This document shows, in pieces, positions 580 through 63,864 of a DNA stretch of 64,000 nt. Source of the DNA: an uncultured Pirellulaceae bacterium (GTDB lineage Bacteria > Planctomycetota > Planctomycetia > Pirellulales > Pirellulaceae). A model generated the notes under the pieces. That model was not told where the DNA came from. It worked only from the letters and a program-made list of their open reading frames with translations, and did not search any database. The DNA is taken from positions 70,159 through 134,158 of the forward strand of contig CAZMNY010000011.1 in NCBI GenBank assembly GCA_964567745.1, given 5' to 3'. Positions within the stretch are counted from its first letter, which is position 1. Each line of letters begins with the position of its first letter. Both the position numbers and the translations under genes were made by a program.

Positions 580-605
580 TCTAGCGACGGCGGTCATCAC
601 GTCTT

Positions 606-684
606 CGTTTAACCCGTTGCCGCAGGCAAGACGCGGCTTCTAGTCCGCAAGAAGAACGACTCGCCTGCGGCAACGGGTTAAACG
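606..684. terminator. Long perfect inverted repeat (22-bp arms, 35-nt spacer) between convergent genes; likely bidirectional terminator hairpin
   Basis: cgtttaacccgttgccgcaggc (606-627) is the exact reverse complement of gcctgcggcaacgggttaaacg (663-684). It lies between the stop of the + gene (579) and the stop of the - gene (711). Confidence 0.5.
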
Positions 685-710
685 AACAATCAAGGACGCG
701 GCAATCTCGC

Positions 711-14784: not shown

Positions 14785-15022
14785 AAGGGCAGCTTTCGTA
14801 ATGGTAGGCGAGATCGCCGCGCGACGGCCAAACTCTCAATTCCTCATCATAATCTTAGTCACCGCAGCCAGGGAATGGCGTGGCGTCGCCTTTCGCTCCG
14901 CAAAAGTAGCGAAGCGGTCGCAGAGCGAACGAAGAACGCGCTACTTTCGCGGAATAACGAAGGACGCGCCACTTTCGCGGAGCGAAAGGCAACTGTGAGG
15001 CGATTAGGCGACGGTGAGGCGA

Positions 15023-25067: not shown

Positions 25068-25261
25068 CTCCCACCAACTCGGCGGGCGTTGGCCGCACCT
25101 CGGCGAGTTCATTCATCTCGCGCGAGTTTTTCCCATCTCGGCCCGACGGAAAATGCAAAGTCCAAAGTGGAAAGTGCAAAATGTGTCCCCAACGAGCTCG
25201 CTCGTTCGGTGAATTAGATTCGCAGCTAACAGTTCTGCCTCAACCAGGCGGAGGTCGTTCG

Positions 25262-39917: not shown

Positions 39918-41273
39918 ATGGAGATCGTGTCAGCGATTCGGCAGCGGCTTGCTGACAAGGTCGGGAAAGAACGATTTGAGTTGTGGTTTGGCCACAATGT
40001 CAGCCTCGCCTTTCAGGCGAACGTTCTTTCCGTGGTAGCGCGGAACGATTTCTGGCTTGACCGGCTCCGCACTCATTTTCGTCGAGATCTTGAGCTCGCC
40101 TGTTTCGAAGTCGTTGGCCAGCCGCCGCAGCTCAAGTTCGTGTCCCGCGGAGCGGAAAAACCACAACCGCGGAAAACGACCCGTCGTCGGTCCGCAGCCG
40201 ATCCAAATCAAAAAACGACGGACTCATCGTCGTTGGGTGCCGAACGCGGTCTGACCTCGTACGTGATCGGCGAGTGCAACAAACTCGCGCACATGTCGGC
40301 AGCGACAGCGCTTTCGCGATTGGGGCGTTGGTCGCCGTTGTTCATTCACGGCCCGCACGGAAGCGGCAAGACGGAGCTGCTGAAGTGCCTAAAGAATTCG
40401 GCTAGAGACAACCTAAACGCGACTCGCGTCGTGATGATGTCGGCTGAGCAATTCACGACATTTTTCTTAGAGGCTTTGCACGGCAGCGGTCTGCCCAACT
40501 TCCGGCGTAAGTATCGCGACCTCGACCTGTTGATTATCGACGACGTGCAATTTCTGGCGGGCAAGCCGGCAACGCTCGTGGAATTACACCACACGATCGA
40601 CTCGATTCAGCGGAATGGACGACAACTGGTTTTCGCTTCCGATCGTCCCGCGCTGGAACTGTCCGGACTTGGGCAAGAGTTAATTGGCCGCATGACCGGC
40701 GGTCTGACTTGCGCCATGGAGTCCCTCGACGAAGCAACTCGCCGATCCATTTTTCGAGCTCAAGCAGCTCAGCGCGGACTCAAGATTCCGGCGACCGTTG
40801 TGGATGAAGTGGCGTCGCAGATTTGTGGCGACGGCCGACAAGTCATTGGCGCCTTGAATCGTCTCGAGGCGGTTAGCATCGCACAGCAAAGTCCGATCAC
40901 CGACGAGCTGGCCTCTGAATGTCTCCACGATATCTTTCGCAGCCAACGCAAGGCGGTGCGAATGGATGACATTGAAGGTGCCGTGTGTGAAGTATTTGGT
41001 CTCGATCGACGGACGCTGCAATCGGATCGAAAGACGAGAAGCATTTTGCAGCCGCGGATGTTGGCCATGTGGCTCGCACGAAAACACACGCGAGCCGCCT
41101 ATTCCGAAATCGGCCGATACTTCGGCAAACGCAGCCACAGCACGGTCATTTCCGCACAGCAGAAGGTGACTCGCTGGATGAGTGAAAACGCGGCGGTGCA
41201 ATTGCCCAACGGCGAATGCGGAGTGCAGGCGGCGTTGCACCGCATCGAGTCACAGCTTCGCACCGGAGGTTAG
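39918..41273 (+). CDS. dnaA: DnaA-family replication initiator-like AAA+ protein with atypical Walker A (GPHGSGKT)
   Basis: N-terminal DnaA-like domain, AAA+ module (Walker A GPHGSGKTEL, Walker B LLIIDDVQFLAGK), C-terminal DnaA-box-binding helix-turn-helix (EIGRYFGKRSHSTVISAQQKV). ATG at 39918; the track start 39903 is GTG. Confidence 0.7.
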   Translation: MEIVSAIRQRLADKVGKERFELWFGHNVSLAFQANVLSVVARNDFWLDRLRTHFRRDLELACFEVVGQPPQLKFVSRGAEKPQPRKTTRRRSAADPNQKTTDSSSLGAERGLTSYVIGECNKLAHMSAATALSRLGRWSPLFIHGPHGSGKTELLKCLKNSARDNLNATRVVMMSAEQFTTFFLEALHGSGLPNFRRKYRDLDLLIIDDVQFLAGKPATLVELHHTIDSIQRNGRQLVFASDRPALELSGLGQELIGRMTGGLTCAMESLDEATRRSIFRAQAAQRGLKIPATVVDEVASQICGDGRQVIGALNRLEAVSIAQQSPITDELASECLHDIFRSQRKAVRMDDIEGAVCEVFGLDRRTLQSDRKTRSILQPRMLAMWLARKHTRAAYSEIGRYFGKRSHSTVISAQQKVTRWMSENAAVQLPNGECGVQAALHRIESQLRTGG

Positions 41274-43833: not shown

Positions 43834-43929
43834 CTCAGTTCTCATGACATTCTCCTTCTCGATCAAATCCGCCATCGGGAGATCGAAAGAAGTCACATTG
43901 GGCGGATTCGTTCTCCGTCACGCTGGGCG

Positions 43930-43960
43930 GACGAGCTGGCTCGTTCGGTGAATCAGATTA
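43930..43960. repeat. REP-like palindromic element (gACGAGC-tg-GCTCGTtcggtgaatcagatt family), copy 1
   Basis: Palindrome acgagctggctcgt followed by conserved cggtgaatcagatt. Confidence 0.7.
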
Positions 43961-44041
43961 CGACGCCAGAGCCGGTCTCATTTCGGCCTCGGCGAAACGG
44001 CCCCTAGAAACAAAATTGCGAGCTCGGCCGACTCGTTGGGA

Positions 44042-44131
44042 TCCACCCAACCCAGGGCGTCGCCGACGCTCGTTTCACTCACGTCAGCTTTGCCCTGGGC
44101 TGCGATGAGGTTGGGCTTCGCCCAACAGGTG
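44042..44131. repeat. Roughly 90-bp dispersed repeat (family C), inverted copy at 63705..63795 (about 90% identity)
   Basis: tgccctgggctgcgatgaggttgggcttcgcccaacaggtg and upstream cgtcgccgacgctcgtttcactcacgtc match the reverse complement of 63705-63786. Confidence 0.7.
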
Positions 44132-44156
44132 CGAGTGCATCCATCACGTTGCGGTC

Positions 44157-44190
44157 TGCATCCATTTGTGCATCCATTTGCATCCATTTG
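44157..44190. repeat. 12-bp tandem repeat (tgcatccatttg) x3
   Basis: Direct reading. Confidence 0.8.
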
Positions 44191-44342
44191 CGGTCAGACG
44201 TCGTATGTCGAGAAATGGACGATCCAGGCAGTTTGGAAATCCCTTGGTTAAAGTCAGGGCGCGCGTCATCCACGCAACCTCAAGACTCCTGACACCGATG
44301 GCAACTGAAGTGGGTGATGGACCAGGAGTAGCTGAGATGGAC

Positions 44343-44400
44343 GCTAACAGTCCAAGCAATCTCAGCAAGACCCAACGAGCTTGCTCGTTCGGTGAATGAG
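44343..44400. repeat. REP-like unit (gctaacagtccaagcaa...cccAACGAGCttGCTCGTTcggtgaatgag), copy 2
   Basis: Perfect 7+7 palindrome aacgagc-tt-gctcgtt at 44374-44389. The same unit recurs at 44681-44744. Confidence 0.75.
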
Positions 44401-44401
44401 A

Positions 44402-44510
44402 CTAGTGTTGCGTCAACTCTAAAAATGGGGGTTGGCTTCGGCGTAACTTGACTTGGCGGCGTACGATACAAACACTGGGATCCTAATTCTTAGTGTTGAC
44501 GCTGCACTAG
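44402..44510. mobile_element. MITE-like element 1 (109 bp) with 14/16-matching terminal inverted repeats ctagtgttgcgtcaac / gttgacgctgcactag, flanked by TA within CTAG
   Basis: The termini are near-perfect reverse complements. Related termini to MITE 2/3 but different internal sequence. Confidence 0.6.
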
Positions 44511-44538
44511 TCGATATCGACGACACAACCAAGACCTC

Positions 44539-44567
44539 AACGAGCTTGCTCGTTCGGTGAATCAGAT
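44539..44567. repeat. REP-like palindromic element, copy 3 (aacgagcttgctcgttcggtgaatcagatt)
   Basis: Identical core to the other copies. Confidence 0.75.
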
Positions 44568-44572
44568 TCACT

Positions 44573-44680
44573 CTAGTGCTGTGTTACAGCTTGGAATTGG
44601 GATCGACAATTCGTTTGGTCAACGCCCGCCACGGCGAATCGGGTGCGCCACCCTAAAACTAAGGCGTAACGCAGCACTAG
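44573..44680. mobile_element. MITE-like element 2 (108 bp), IS630-type: 15-bp TIRs ctagtgctgtgttac / gtaacgcagcactag, CTAG target with TA duplication; 100% identical inverted copy at 58890..58997
   Basis: The reverse complement of 58890-58997 equals 44573-44680 base for base. TIR 14/15. Confidence 0.75.
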
Positions 44681-44714
44681 CAGCTAACAGTCCAAGCAAC
44701 TTCGACGAGACCCC

Positions 44715-44744
44715 AACGAGCTTGCTCGTTCGGTGAATGAGATT
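44715..44744. repeat. REP-like palindromic element, copy 4
   Basis: aacgagcttgctcgttcggtgaatgagatt. Further copies at 25191-25220 and 29521-29550. Confidence 0.75.
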
Positions 44745-44828
44745 AGCCGCGAGAGCCGGTCTCATTTCGGTCTCGGCGAATCGACCCCGAGATGCTGCGG
44801 TCAGACGTCGCTTGTCGCGCAACGAGAG

Positions 44829-57792: not shown

Positions 57793-58893
57793 ATGGGTAT
57801 TTTTGACCGTTTTCGAAAGAAGTCTGAGGCGGCGGGTGCCGTAGAGGAAGCCCAGACAACCGAGAGTGAGAGTGATTCAGGCAGCGATTCAAGCGAGTTG
57901 GCTGAGGATACCGCGAAGGTCGAGTCAGAGCCGTCGGTGACGCGGGAATCGGCGGAAGAGGTTGCGCCCAAGAAACGGCTGTGGGCCCGACTTCGAAGTG
58001 GACTCAAGAAGACGTCTGACCTTCTGCATACCGATATTCGCGACTTGCTGAAATCGGATGGTCAGCTTGTCGATGACGAGTTCTTGACGAAGCTCTACGC
58101 GATCCTGATCAAGACCGACATGGGAGTTGCCGCGGCAAATCAGATTCGAGAGCAGATTCAACAAGACTACCGAGGTCGCAAAGTTCAACTGTCGGATGTG
58201 TTGGCCGTTATCAAAGCCAAGTTTGCCGAACTGCTTGCTCAGCCTGAGCGGCCAATTGAGTACGCGGCGGAGGGTCCAACGGTCGTCATGGTCGTGGGCG
58301 TCAATGGTTCAGGTAAAACGACGTCGATCGCCAAGTTGACCAAAATGTTTTCGGACGAGGGGCGTCGCGTCGTGCTCGGCGCCGGAGACACGTTTCGCGC
58401 AGCGGCCGTAGCTCAACTGACAATTTGGTCAGAACGGCTTGGCGCCGAGATCGTCAAGGGAGAGCAGGGGGGAGACCCCGCCAGCGTTGCGCATCGAGCG
58501 GTTGCCGCAGCTCGAGAGTCCAATGCCGATATCTGTATTATTGACACTGCCGGTCGATTGCAGACCCAGTCCAACTTGATGGACGAATTGGCGAAGATTC
58601 GCCGAGTGGTTCAGAAGCAGATTCCCGAGGCCCCGCACGAAGTCTTGCTGGTGCTCGATGCGACGGCGGGTCAAAACGCGATCAGTCAGGCTCAAGGCTT
58701 CTCGGAAGCGGCCGGCTGCACCGGGATTGTCCTGGCAAAGCTCGACGGCACGGCCAAAGGTGGGGTAGTTGTTCCGATTCGCCAACAATTCAGTCTTCCC
58801 GTAAAATACATTGGCGTCGGTGAAACGCCTAGCGACTTGGAGCTCTTTCGAGTCGATCGATTTGTCGACGCCCTGTTTGACGAACACGCCTAG
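57793..58893 (+). CDS. ftsY: Signal recognition particle receptor FtsY (acidic N-domain + NG domain)
   Basis: ATG at 57793. GVNGSGKTTS, DTAGR, KLDGTAKGG motifs. Stop TAG 58891-93 lies inside the CTAG terminus of MITE copy 3. Confidence 0.93.
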   Translation: MGIFDRFRKKSEAAGAVEEAQTTESESDSGSDSSELAEDTAKVESEPSVTRESAEEVAPKKRLWARLRSGLKKTSDLLHTDIRDLLKSDGQLVDDEFLTKLYAILIKTDMGVAAANQIREQIQQDYRGRKVQLSDVLAVIKAKFAELLAQPERPIEYAAEGPTVVMVVGVNGSGKTTSIAKLTKMFSDEGRRVVLGAGDTFRAAAVAQLTIWSERLGAEIVKGEQGGDPASVAHRAVAAARESNADICIIDTAGRLQTQSNLMDELAKIRRVVQKQIPEAPHEVLLVLDATAGQNAISQAQGFSEAAGCTGIVLAKLDGTAKGGVVVPIRQQFSLPVKYIGVGETPSDLELFRVDRFVDALFDEHA

Positions 58894-58997
58894 TGCTGCG
58901 TTACGCCTTAGTTTTAGGGTGGCGCACCCGATTCGCCGTGGCGGGCGTTGACCAAACGAATTGTCGATCCCAATTCCAAGCTGTAACACAGCACTAG
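58890..58997. mobile_element. MITE-like element 3, identical inverted copy of element 2 (44573..44680), inserted at the ftsY stop codon
   Basis: Exact reverse-complement identity over 108 bp. Flanked by TA within CTAG at both ends. Confidence 0.75.
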
Positions 58998-63522: not shown

Positions 63523-63704
63523 CTTCGATCGCTTTCAAAACGGAGTTCATCGTCACCTTGGGAGAGTCGACTGCGGCTCTCCTCTCTGACTAACCGTGGA
63601 GTTTAGGGCCGAATTAACAGGCTGTCCACGGGACGCGAAAGGGCGGCGGTCGGCGCGATCAGCCACCGGTCGATACGAAATCGAGAATAAGTCATGATGT
63701 TTAC

Positions 63705-63864
63705 ACCTGTTGGGCGAAGCGCAACCTCATCGTAGCCCAGGGCAGAGCCAGACGTGAGTGAAACGAGCGTCGGCGGTGCCCTGGGTATTGGGTGCCGAGT
63801 GGATCGGCCGAGCGCGTGCTCGTGTTTTGAAGGGCCGGTTCGCCGAGGCCGAAACGAGACCGGC
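63705..63864. repeat. Dispersed repeats: inverted copy of family C (63705..63795) and of the gccggtctcatttcggcctcggcgaa element (63835..63864)
   Basis: Reverse-complement matches to 44042-44131 and to 43971-44000 / 44755-44784. Track ORF 63701..63940 is repeat-derived. Confidence 0.7.

What the first reader, a model, noticed from the sequence alone, without database searches (positions are those of the whole stretch)
44402..44680. IS630-type MITE family; identical 108-bp copy sits inverted at the ftsY stop codon 14 kb away
Element 2 (44573..44680) and element 3 (58890..58997) are exact reverse complements of each other. They have 15-bp TIRs (ctagtgctgtgttac / gtaacgcagcactag) and are flanked by TA inside CTAG, the IS630/Tc1-mariner target signature. 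Element 1 (44402..44510) shares the termini but has different cargo. Perfect identity of two dispersed copies implies recent mobilisation in trans by an IS630-family transposase encoded elsewhere. Copy 3 inserted exactly at the FtsY C-terminus, and the TAG stop is contained in the element terminus/target duplication.
Basis: partly seen in the sequence, partly recalled or inferred. Interest (0 to 1): 0.55.

Follow-up and report, generated by a model that had tools for sequence, protein, structure and literature searches.

The report
Small IS630-type mobile DNA elements (MITEs)
Three ~108-bp non-coding "hitch-hiker" transposons sit in this marine Pirellulaceae genome, one exactly on the ftsY stop codon; they are real, most likely moved by an IS630/Tc1-type transposase encoded elsewhere, and are an ordinary kind of bacterial mobile element.

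Summary
44573-44680 and 58890-58997 are exact reverse complements (108/108), and identity stops exactly at a CTAG on each side. 44402-44510 is a diverged relative.

These are MITEs: short, non-coding, with ~31-nt imperfect terminal inverted repeats.
- A 98% identical copy lies in unrelated flanks in another metagenome.
- A 133-bp sister type with the same termini occupies about 14 further sites.
- Arms of the same type occur in many Planctomycetota genomes.

No transposase lies in the window or within ~9.5 kb on either side, so the autonomous partner in this organism is not identified. Bona fide IS630-family elements (helix-turn-helix plus DDE_3 transposase) in Ktedonobacter, Streptomyces and Rhodococcus do carry near-identical ends. 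The Rhodococcus copy matches 10 of 12 terminal bases and shows an unambiguous TA duplication. IS701 elements also sit in CTAG but match only 3-4 of 12.

The ftsY stop (TAG) lies inside the element's CTAG. The FtsY end lines up residue for residue with that of an element-free relative. Landing on a stop codon is no more frequent than expected for a CTAG-targeting element.

One caveat: seven other assemblies of the same population show elements 1 and 2 abutting, with element 2 differing from element 3 by 2 bases.

Verdict: a new member of a known kind, of modest interest.

The parts
44402..44510 (.). Element 1: a 109-bp MITE, a diverged member of the same superfamily. Arms are CTAGTGTTGCGTCAAC... 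and ...GTTGACGCTGCACTAG.
   Evidence: CTAG-bounded 14/16 TIR. Its arms fit the Planctomycetota arm consensus CTAGTGCTGcGTCAc.gCT.a.a.TT.GGGT. It is 62-68% identical to element 2. ENA contigs L120 and L122 stop 55 and 63 nt inside it, as expected if it is repeated elsewhere in the community.
44511..44572 (+). A 61-bp spacer between elements 1 and 2 plus the flanking base. It contains one copy of the local hairpin repeat AACGAGCTTGCTCGTTCGGTGAAT. It is not part of a MITE and is absent in seven other assemblies.
44573..44680 (+). Element 2: a 108-bp MITE.
   Evidence: Exact reverse complement of 58890-58997. Folds as a long hairpin, -46.6 kcal/mol, z = -5.1. No Rfam match. Contigs L004 and L008 stop 53 nt inside it.
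44573..44603 (+). Left terminal inverted repeat of element 2: CTAGTGCTGTGTTACAGCTTGGAATTGGGAT. TA at 44574-44575 is the presumed duplicated target.
   Evidence: Arm alignment. Ten of 12 terminal bases equal the end of the Rhodococcus IS630 in L112 (re-registered on TA).
44650..44680 (-). Right terminal inverted repeat of element 2. Read on the minus strand it is CTAGTGCTGCGTTACGCCTTAGTTTTAGGGT.
58890..58997 (-). Element 3: a 108-bp MITE, inverted relative to element 2, inserted at the CTAG that contains the ftsY stop codon.
   Evidence: Present and identical in independent contigs L028 and L106. Absent from the closest relative L029.
57793..58893 (+). ftsY, whose TAG stop (58891-58893) lies within the terminal CTAG of element 3.
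   Evidence: ORF. An exact 366-aa protein is on record with SRP54 domains. The C-terminus aligns residue for residue with that of the element-free relative.

Best explanation
[quoted passage not shown] Each is about 108 bp, non-coding, and carries a ~31-nt imperfect terminal inverted repeat beginning GTGCTGYGT. An IS630-family DDE transposase encoded elsewhere in the genome, or now lost, would bind these repeats. It would cut the element out and paste it into a TA dinucleotide, strongly preferring TA inside CTAG, and duplicate the TA. Because the element starts with G and ends with C, each insertion rebuilds a CTAG on both sides. This accounts for three observations. (a) Elements cluster and abut, sharing one CTAG, because each copy brings two fresh targets into a genome where CTAG is rare. 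(b) An insertion into the C-TAG of the ftsY stop codon leaves the stop and the protein intact. (c) Identity between copies ends exactly at CTAG. What is shown: the anatomy, the dispersal to unrelated flanks, TIR homology to real IS630 elements, and the TA duplication in one such IS630 and in one Phycisphaerae MITE. What is inferred: that an IS630-type enzyme moves the copies in this organism, and that movement was recent.
For: The anatomy and exact identity boundaries are. Copies lie in unrelated flanks: L013 is 106/108 identical, and a 133-bp type shares the left 31 nt and right ~31 nt at about 14 distinct sites. Every complete copy has CTAG at the end that the search pattern did not specify. 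Contigs from many assemblies break k-mer-deep inside elements 1 and 2, as repeats do. A two-terminus pattern found 70 loci in reference genomes against roughly 8 expected by chance (my estimate). These include multi-copy, near-identical families in Planctomycetota whose arm consensus fits elements 1 and 2. Full-length IS elements with such ends encode HTH_32/HTH_Tnp_Tc3_2 plus DDE_3: L098 at 519-1740. Their 64-69% identical homologues are annotated as IS630 family transposases. The Rhodococcus IS630 in L112 ends TA|GTGCTGTGTTCC...GGAACACAGCAC|TA, with flanks cT-TA and TA-Ag. That is a TA duplication and not a 4-bp direct repeat, and it matches element 2's end at 10/12. A Phycisphaerae MITE with the Planctomycete-type arm has TTAG on the left and CTAG on the right. 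This fits a TA duplication but not a 4-bp duplication. IS630's preference for TA inside CTAG is established (Tenzen & Ohtsubo 1991, cited in PMC2170065). The element-free relative L029 has an FtsY whose C-terminus aligns residue for residue.
Against: No IS630 transposase lies in the window or within ~9.5 kb on either side. This rests on tblastn and on precomputed Pfam tables covering the whole window. No full-length element with these exact termini was found in genome, metagenome or viral collections. The one Planctomycete IS630 examined, on an Isosphaeraceae plasmid, has different ends. CTAG is palindromic, so the window's own copies cannot separate a 2-bp TA duplication from a 4-bp CTAG duplication. 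IS701 elements also lie in CTAG/TTAG and begin TACTGC, which superficially resembles TGCTGC. The TA evidence for Planctomycete-type MITEs is a single copy.
Confidence: 0.77

Rival explanations
1. The elements are MITEs derived from an IS701-type (or IS5-type) element. It would insert into YTAG and duplicate all four bases, so the element proper would be TGCTG...CAGCA flanked by CTAG direct repeats.
For: IS701-family elements in Streptomyces, Rhodococcus, Ralstonia and Acetobacter plasmids are flanked by CTAG or TTAG 4-bp duplications and begin TACTGC, TACTAC or CACTAC. The literature gives IS701 a conserved 4-bp duplication and ends '---YACT' (PMC2266710). The Streptomyces and Acidobacteria MITE arms (CTAGTGCTGTGACCGC...) resemble the IS701 end CTAGTACTGCAACCGC.
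Against: Over terminal positions 5-16, element 2 matches IS701 ends at only 3-4/12. It matches IS630 ends at 7-8/12 for L098 and L100 and at 10/12 for L112. All IS701 ends seen have A where these elements have G (TACT versus TGCT). The one Planctomycete-type copy at a non-CTAG site has TTAG on one side and CTAG on the other, which is not a 4-bp direct repeat. No IS701 homologue occurs in the window or in the Planctomycete loci.
Confidence: 0.12
2. The elements are REP/REPIN-like or 'TIR repeat' elements spread by a HUH tyrosine transposase (RAYT/TIRYT), not by a DDE transposase.
For: The 133-bp sister type carries in its core a doublet of GTAG-tagged stem-loops with compensatory stem changes, and a free-standing doublet occurs at L024:177-239. 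Di Nocera et al. 2013 report many tyrosine-transposase genes with flanking repeats in Rhodopirellula baltica, and describe TIR repeat families (PMC3733652).
Against: Elements 1, 2 and 3 contain no GTAG- or CGTC-tagged stem-loop. The conserved parts are the outer arms, which match IS630 ends. The strictly symmetric CTAG/TA flanks are typical of DDE cut-and-paste insertion, not of the asymmetric single-strand insertion of IS200/IS605-type enzymes (my knowledge of those families). No Y1 transposase domain appears in any called gene of the window. The REP doublet is more simply read as cargo or a nested insertion in the 133-bp type.
Confidence: 0.04
3. The elements are not mobile. The pair is a simple segmental duplication, or an artefact of metagenome assembly threading one repeat copy into another locus.
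For: The window's junction of element 1, the 61-bp spacer and element 2, and the exact identity of elements 2 and 3, appear in no other retrieved contig. Seven contigs show a different junction and 106/108 identity. Elements 1 and 2 are both longer than typical assembly k-mers, so a chimeric path through two repeat copies is possible.
Against: The elements themselves are present in many independent assemblies (L001-L003, L009, L010, L028, L106, L116-L118). Identity stops exactly at CTAG, with TIRs at both ends. A third site (L013) and a large family exist in other genomes. An artefact could affect only the exact identity and the 61-bp spacer, not the existence of the family.
Confidence: 0.03
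4. The 108-bp unit is primarily a functional RNA or a regulatory hairpin, such as a small RNA, a terminator or an mRNA stabiliser, conserved for that role.
For: It forms a strong hairpin (-46.6 kcal/mol, z = -5.1 on one strand; -40.2 kcal/mol, z = -3.6 on the other). It sits immediately 3' of ftsY.
Against: It has no Rfam match and no promoter-like or terminator-like site. It occurs in both orientations. The fold is the trivial consequence of terminal inverted repeats. The core differs completely between family members while the arms are conserved. A secondary effect on ftsY mRNA is not excluded.
Confidence: 0.03

Closest known systems
RUP (repeat unit of pneumococcus), a 107-bp MITE of Streptococcus pneumoniae thought to be moved by IS630-Spn1
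   Same: Nearly the same size, non-coding, with terminal inverted repeats resembling IS630 ends. It targets TA, is dispersed in intergenic DNA, and is mobilised in trans. RUP is listed among bacterial MITEs in PMC3733652; the other details are from my own knowledge.
   Different: The sequence is unrelated and the host phylum differs. For RUP a cognate IS630 is present in the same genome. Here no cognate was found, and the target is almost always the full CTAG.
Nezha (cyanobacterial MITE derived from an IS630-family element) and Stowaway (plant Tc1/mariner MITEs)
   Same: Deletion-derivative or TIR-sharing non-autonomous partners of IS630/Tc1-mariner transposases with TA duplication. Nezha is listed in PMC3733652; the other details are from my own knowledge.
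   Different: The TIR sequences differ. Here the arms (~31 nt, with conserved blocks at nt 1-15 and 25-31) are shared across many Planctomycetota while the cores are unrelated.
IS630 of Shigella sonnei and ISY100 of Synechocystis (autonomous IS630 family)
   Same: Insertion into TA with TA duplication, and for IS630 a marked preference for TA within 5'-CTAG-3' (PMC2170065 and the Tenzen references cited there). The IS630-clade elements found here (L098, L100, L112) have ends GTGCT(G/C)..GTT(C) like the MITEs.
   Different: Those elements are 1.1-1.2 kb and encode the transposase. The window elements encode nothing.
IS701 family elements
   Same: They also sit in CTAG or TTAG, and the first bases after the duplication look similar (TACTGC versus TGCTGC) (PMC2266710).
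   Different: They make a 4-bp direct duplication, their ends are YACT with a conserved A, and they use a different transposase fold family. They match element 2 at only 3-4/12.
REP / REPIN elements (GTAG-tagged palindromes moved by RAYT)
   Same: Short, palindromic, intergenic and multi-copy. A REP doublet is embedded in the 133-bp sister type (PMC3733652).
   Different: The window elements lack the GTAG/CGTC tag and the short REP stem-loop. They are bounded by long TIRs and symmetric CTAG.

Membership tests
Bacterial MITE | Small (under ~300 bp) with no coding capacity | tested here: met
   Lengths are 108-109 bp. The only internal ORF is 34 codons, and no gene with that product is on record.
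Bacterial MITE | Terminal inverted repeats | tested here: met
   14/15 for elements 2 and 3 and 14/16 for element 1, with arm similarity extending to ~31 nt.
Bacterial MITE | Multiple dispersed copies in unrelated flanks | tested here: met
   Two sites in the window plus L013 for the 108-bp type, and about 14 sites for the 133-bp type. Contig breaks fall inside the elements.
Bacterial MITE | Target-site duplication flanking each copy | tested here: inconclusive
   Every copy is flanked by CTAG on both sides. Because CTAG is a palindrome rebuilt by the element's G...C ends, the window copies cannot show whether 2 or 4 bases are duplicated. No precise empty site was recovered, because the relative L029 is too diverged.
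Bacterial MITE | Termini matching an autonomous IS that can supply the transposase | tested here: inconclusive
   This is met at clade level: the IS630 elements L098, L100 and L112 match at 7-10/12 terminal bases. No matching IS was found in this organism or in any Planctomycete.
IS630/Tc1-mariner-derived element | Insertion into TA with duplication of TA | tested here: inconclusive
   The window copies are compatible with it. The related IS630 L112 shows TA only (flanks cT-TA / TA-Ag). One Phycisphaerae MITE has TTAG on the left and CTAG on the right. That is a single Planctomycete-type example.
IS630/Tc1-mariner-derived element | Preference for TA within CTAG, as known for IS630 itself | tested here: met
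   All window copies, and all complete metagenome copies at the end not fixed by the search pattern, are flanked by CTAG.
IS630/Tc1-mariner-derived element | A cognate transposase with N-terminal helix-turn-helix domains and a DDE_3 catalytic domain, bounded by the same TIRs | tested here: inconclusive
   Shown for L098 by Pfam (HTH_32 3e-16, DDE_3 4e-16) and for L100 and L112 by annotation, all in other phyla. It is absent from the ~83 kb examined in this organism. The rest of the genome could not be searched.
IS701-derived element | 4-bp direct duplication and ends of the type YACT | tested here: not met
   The ends are TGCT, not YACT. They match four IS701 elements at 3-4/12 (PMC2266710). 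The TTAG/CTAG flanks of the L094 copy are not a direct repeat.
REP / REPIN | A short stem-loop tagged by GTAG or CGTC, associated with a RAYT gene | tested here: not met
   Elements 1-3 have no such tag or unit. It is present only in the core of the 133-bp sister type. No Y1 transposase domain appears in the called genes of the window.
Known structured RNA family (Rfam) | A match to a covariance model at its gathering score | tested here: not met
   There are no matches in the window. Only chance-level hits appear at E up to 10.

The most novel reading that the evidence does not exclude
The window elements belong to a Planctomycetota-wide MITE superfamily defined by a conserved ~31-nt two-block arm, with freely exchangeable cores. 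Some members have captured GTAG-tagged REP doublets. They would then be hybrid elements that carry recognition sites for two unrelated transposase classes, an IS630 DDE enzyme and a RAYT HUH enzyme, and could be moved by either. The CTAGTGCTG terminus, shared by MITE families in at least eight phyla including one archaeal MAG, would mark one horizontally spreading IS630 clade whose MITEs persist where the autonomous element has been lost.
Probability: 0.15. Interest if true: 0.5.

Novelty: new member of a known kind. Interest (0 to 1): 0.3.

Why it matters
For this genome the elements explain a repeat-rich intergenic region, the positions where metagenome assemblies of this population break, and a strain-level difference confined to the MITE cluster in otherwise identical DNA. 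More generally, they illustrate how a CTAG-targeting element can land on a C-TAG stop codon of an essential gene (ftsY) without harm, and how each insertion creates new targets that cause nesting. A conserved arm shared across Planctomycetota could serve as a marker for cataloguing such elements and for finding the missing transposase. None of this changes current understanding of MITEs or of IS630 transposition.

Tried and rejected
1. A 22-mer TIR pattern found nothing in reference genomes or viral contigs. The source genome and the exact family are not in those collections.

2. A look-up of the 34-aa ORF inside the element, meant to list all identical copies, found no record.

3. A search for the parent IS led nowhere in several ways.
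   - No inverted TIR pairs 0.9-1.7 kb apart occur in the metagenome loci, and the ORFs next to solo TIRs look like host genes.
   - tblastn with IS630 and IS701 transposases against all held loci and the window hit only Ktedonobacter and the plasmid loci.
   - A database search with the Ktedonobacter DDE_3 protein returned only Ktedonobacteria and Streptomyces names.
   - A blastn of the Planctomycete arm consensus against plasmids gave one chance-level hit.
   - The Isosphaeraceae plasmid IS630 has unrelated ends.

4. Candidate long pairs in L061 and L044 turned out to be other IS types lying beside a MITE.

5. I tested whether MITE ends coincide with stop codons more often than CTAG sites in general. 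They do not: 13/70 against 42/313 at 250 codons or more, p = 0.26. The ftsY position is therefore not special.

6. Walking ~9.5 kb beyond each window edge found no further copies.

7. Full-text searches for the terminal motif, for MITEs in Planctomycetes, and for IS630 MITEs in Streptomyces found no description of this family.

8. The GC skew shows no switch in the window. The repeat-rich region ~2.5 kb downstream of dnaA is therefore not supported as a replication origin on that basis.

Full report
**Observation**

- 44573-44680 is the exact reverse complement of 58890-58997 (108/108). Alignment of the flanks shows that similarity stops abruptly at the CTAG on either side.
- The termini CTAGTGCTGTGTTAC and CTAGTGCTGCGTTAC match at 14 of 15 positions.
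- A search for this end with up to three mismatches gives seven hits in the window against 1.25 expected. Six of them are the ends of the three reported elements.
- Element 1 (44402-44510) is also bounded by CTAG and has its own 14/16 inverted repeat. It is only 62-68% identical to element 2 overall.
- CTAG is strongly under-represented in the window, at 64 sites against 239 expected from base composition. A scan of all CTAG-bounded inverted-repeat pairs finds only these three elements above background.
- ftsY ends at 58893, and its TAG is the last three bases of the element's terminal CTAG.

**Source and context**

FtsY homologues place the organism in uncultured Pirellulaceae, Planctomycetota. 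The window matches metagenome contigs from several marine samples at about 100% identity.

Elements 1 and 2 lie in a ~1-kb non-coding gap between convergent genes, an FG-GAP/UnbV_ASPIC protein and a peptidase_C39-like protein. This gap also holds other local repeats:
- a hairpin repeat, AACGAGCTTGCTCGTTCGGTGAAT, with five copies in the window, all on the + strand;
- a ~160-bp family shared with 63704-63864.

The two MITEs sit at CTAGs between tandem units of the hairpin repeat.

Precomputed Pfam tables for the called genes across the whole window show no transposase domain of any kind. tblastn with IS630 and IS701 transposases is negative. No Rfam family matches, and no promoter-like or terminator-like sites fall inside the elements. 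The strong predicted hairpin is the direct consequence of the inverted repeats.

**The elements are dispersed repeats, not a duplication**

A scan of JGI metagenome contigs with a relaxed 22-nt end pattern returned 17 loci.
- L013 carries a 107-bp copy that is 106/108 identical to element 2, in unrelated flanks.
- Most of the other loci carry a 133-bp type. It shares the left 31 nt and the right ~31 nt with element 2 but has a different core, and it lies at about 14 distinct sites.
- Every complete copy has CTAG at the end that the pattern did not specify.

Contigs from several assemblies stop 53-63 nt inside element 1 or element 2, as assemblers do at repeats. Element 3 is present and identical in two independent contigs. 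It is absent from the closest relative available, whose FtsY is 81% identical, ends at the same aligned residue, and uses TGA.

**Which transposase family?**

CTAG flanks are the classical preference of IS630, which duplicates only the central TA. A second scan of reference genomes used only the outer 11 nt of each end and returned 70 loci. I estimate about 8 by chance. The hits include multi-copy, near-identical families in many Planctomycetota, and also in Chloroflexota, Actinomycetota, Acidobacteriota, Bacteroidota and one archaeal MAG.

The Planctomycete arms share a ~31-nt consensus, CTAGTGCTGcGTCAc.gCT.a.a.TT.GGGT, and both arms of elements 1 and 2 fit it.

Full-length elements with such ends turned up in three places.
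- In Ktedonobacter racemifer (L098), a 1222-bp element bounded by CTAGTGCTCCGTTCG encodes HTH_32/HTH_Tnp_Tc3_2 and DDE_3 proteins. Two MITEs abut it, sharing CTAGs.
- Homologues at 64-69% identity on Streptomyces, Rhodococcus and Deinococcus plasmids are annotated as IS630 family transposases.
- The Rhodococcus copy (L112) is the most informative. Its ends are TA|GTGCTGTGTTCC...GGAACACAGCAC|TA, with different outer bases on the two sides. The duplication is therefore TA and not four bases. Ten of its twelve terminal bases equal those of element 2.

**The serious rival: IS701**

The same Streptomyces locus contains an IS701-family element flanked by CTAG, with ends CTAGTACTGCAACCGC. I sampled three more IS701 elements.
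- Two have 4-bp direct duplications of TTAG; the Rhodococcus one has GTAG on one side and CTAG on the other. Ends are TACTGC, TACTAC or CACTAC. This agrees with the literature (PMC2266710).
- CTAG flanks alone are therefore not diagnostic.
- These IS701 ends match element 2 at only 3-4 of 12 positions.
- A Phycisphaerae MITE with the Planctomycete-type arm has TTAG on one side and CTAG on the other. That fits a TA duplication but not a 4-bp one.

I therefore favour IS630 at about 0.77 and IS701-like at about 0.12. Some of the 70 families, namely the Streptomyces and Acidobacteria group with ...YGACC arms, may well be IS701 derivatives.

**The REP/REPIN alternative**

The core of the 133-bp type is a doublet of GTAG-tagged stem-loops with compensatory stem changes, and a free doublet lies nearby in L024. 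Tyrosine-transposase-associated repeats are reported to be abundant in Rhodopirellula (PMC3733652). The window elements lack any such unit, and what is conserved across the family is the outer arm. I read the REP doublet as cargo or a nested insertion.

**The ftsY stop codon**

Because the element begins with G, insertion into the TA of a C-TAG stop regenerates the TAG, so the protein is unchanged. This is a neat consequence of the target, not a special adaptation. Among 70 MITEs, 13 have an end that doubles as the stop of an ORF of at least 250 codons. Among all other CTAG sites in the same loci the figure is 42 of 313 (p = 0.26).

**Caveat on 'perfect identity'**

Seven contigs from seven samples carry a different junction: L001/L116, L002, L003, L009, L010, L117 and L118. 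In them, elements 1 and 2 abut and share one CTAG, and the 61 bp at 44511-44572 are absent. Element 2 has two substitutions (positions 10 and 18), which makes it 106/108 identical to element 3. The longest of these contigs (L001) is otherwise 100% identical to the window over 21.6 kb.

No other contig shows the window's version. There are two readings.
- It is a real minority haplotype. In that case all the differences in 21.6 kb lie in the MITE cluster, which argues for recent activity or gene conversion.
- It is a chimeric assembly path through second copies of elements 1 and 2 elsewhere in the genome.

I could not decide between these. Either reading implies additional copies.

**Verdict**

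The elements are a previously undescribed family of a well-known kind: bacterial IS630-type MITEs, comparable in size and logic to RUP or Nezha. The autonomous partner in this organism remains unidentified.

The wider observations are modestly interesting but not surprising:
- a conserved arm across Planctomycetota;
- CTAGTGCTG-ended MITEs in many phyla;
- REP doublets carried as cargo;
- frequent nesting at regenerated CTAGs.

Noticed in passing
window 25191-25214, 43930-43953, 44374-44397, 44539-44562, 44715-44738: A local hairpin repeat, AACGAGCTTGCTCGTTCGGTGAAT (6-bp stem, CTTG-type loop), has five copies, all on the + strand. Three lie in tandem-like units around the MITEs, often with an upstream GCTAACAGTCCAAGC... 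block and a downstream GAGCCGGTCTCATTTCGG... block. It was not found in the flanking 19 kb or in relatives. Its nature is unknown.
   Followed up: partly
window 43971-44131 and 63704-63864: A ~160-bp repeat family is present in inverted orientation at 82-94% identity. One copy lies in the same intergenic gap as the MITEs and the other near the window end.
   Followed up: no
window 44511-44572; L001:11899-11903: Seven other assemblies of the same population lack these 61 bp, so elements 1 and 2 share one CTAG, and they carry two substitutions in element 2. Apart from these, the longest of them (L001) is 100% identical over 21.6 kb. This is either a real minority haplotype or a chimeric assembly path through other copies.
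   Followed up: partly
L011:558-619, L024:177-239 and other 133-bp copies: The core of the 133-bp sister MITE is a doublet of GTAG-tagged REP-like stem-loops with compensatory stem changes (CCGGAGTC/GACTTCGG, CTGGCTTC/GAAGCCGG, CCGGATTC/GAATTCGG). A free-standing doublet occurs next to one MITE. In L017 the core is inverted relative to the arms.
   Followed up: partly
L030-L099 (reference genomes): MITE-sized elements ending CTAGTGCTGYG...CRCAGCACTAG occur as multi-copy families in at least eight phyla, including a Thermoplasmatota MAG. Two arm groups are visible. One has ...YGTC/YGTT (Planctomycetota, Chloroflexota, Vicinamibacteria, Acidimicrobiales). The other has ...YGACC (Streptomyces, Acidobacteriota, Bacteroidota) and looks more like IS701 ends.
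   Followed up: partly
L098:519-1970; L100:820-3522; L073:3605-3872; L091:51-160; L038:212-425: Elements of this kind, both MITEs and full IS630 and IS701 copies, frequently abut one another and share a single CTAG. This is as expected if each insertion regenerates its own target.
   Followed up: partly
L098:534-1058, L100:1387-2025, L112 right end: In the IS630 clade with these termini, the transposase stop codon (...Y-R-L/I-stop) lies inside the right terminal repeat. The Chloroflexi MITE arms retain these codons. The Planctomycete arm consensus has an in-frame CCC-TAA at a similar place.
   Followed up: no
window ~39918-41273 and 43834-44828: dnaA lies about 2.5 kb upstream of the repeat-rich non-coding gap. 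GC skew is positive throughout the window with no switch, so there is no compositional sign of a replication origin here.
   Followed up: partly
window 604-686 and 14885-14993: Two further near-perfect palindromes: 30-nt arms at 93% with a 23-nt spacer, and 27-nt arms at 89% with a 55-nt spacer. They are unrelated in sequence to the MITEs.
   Followed up: no
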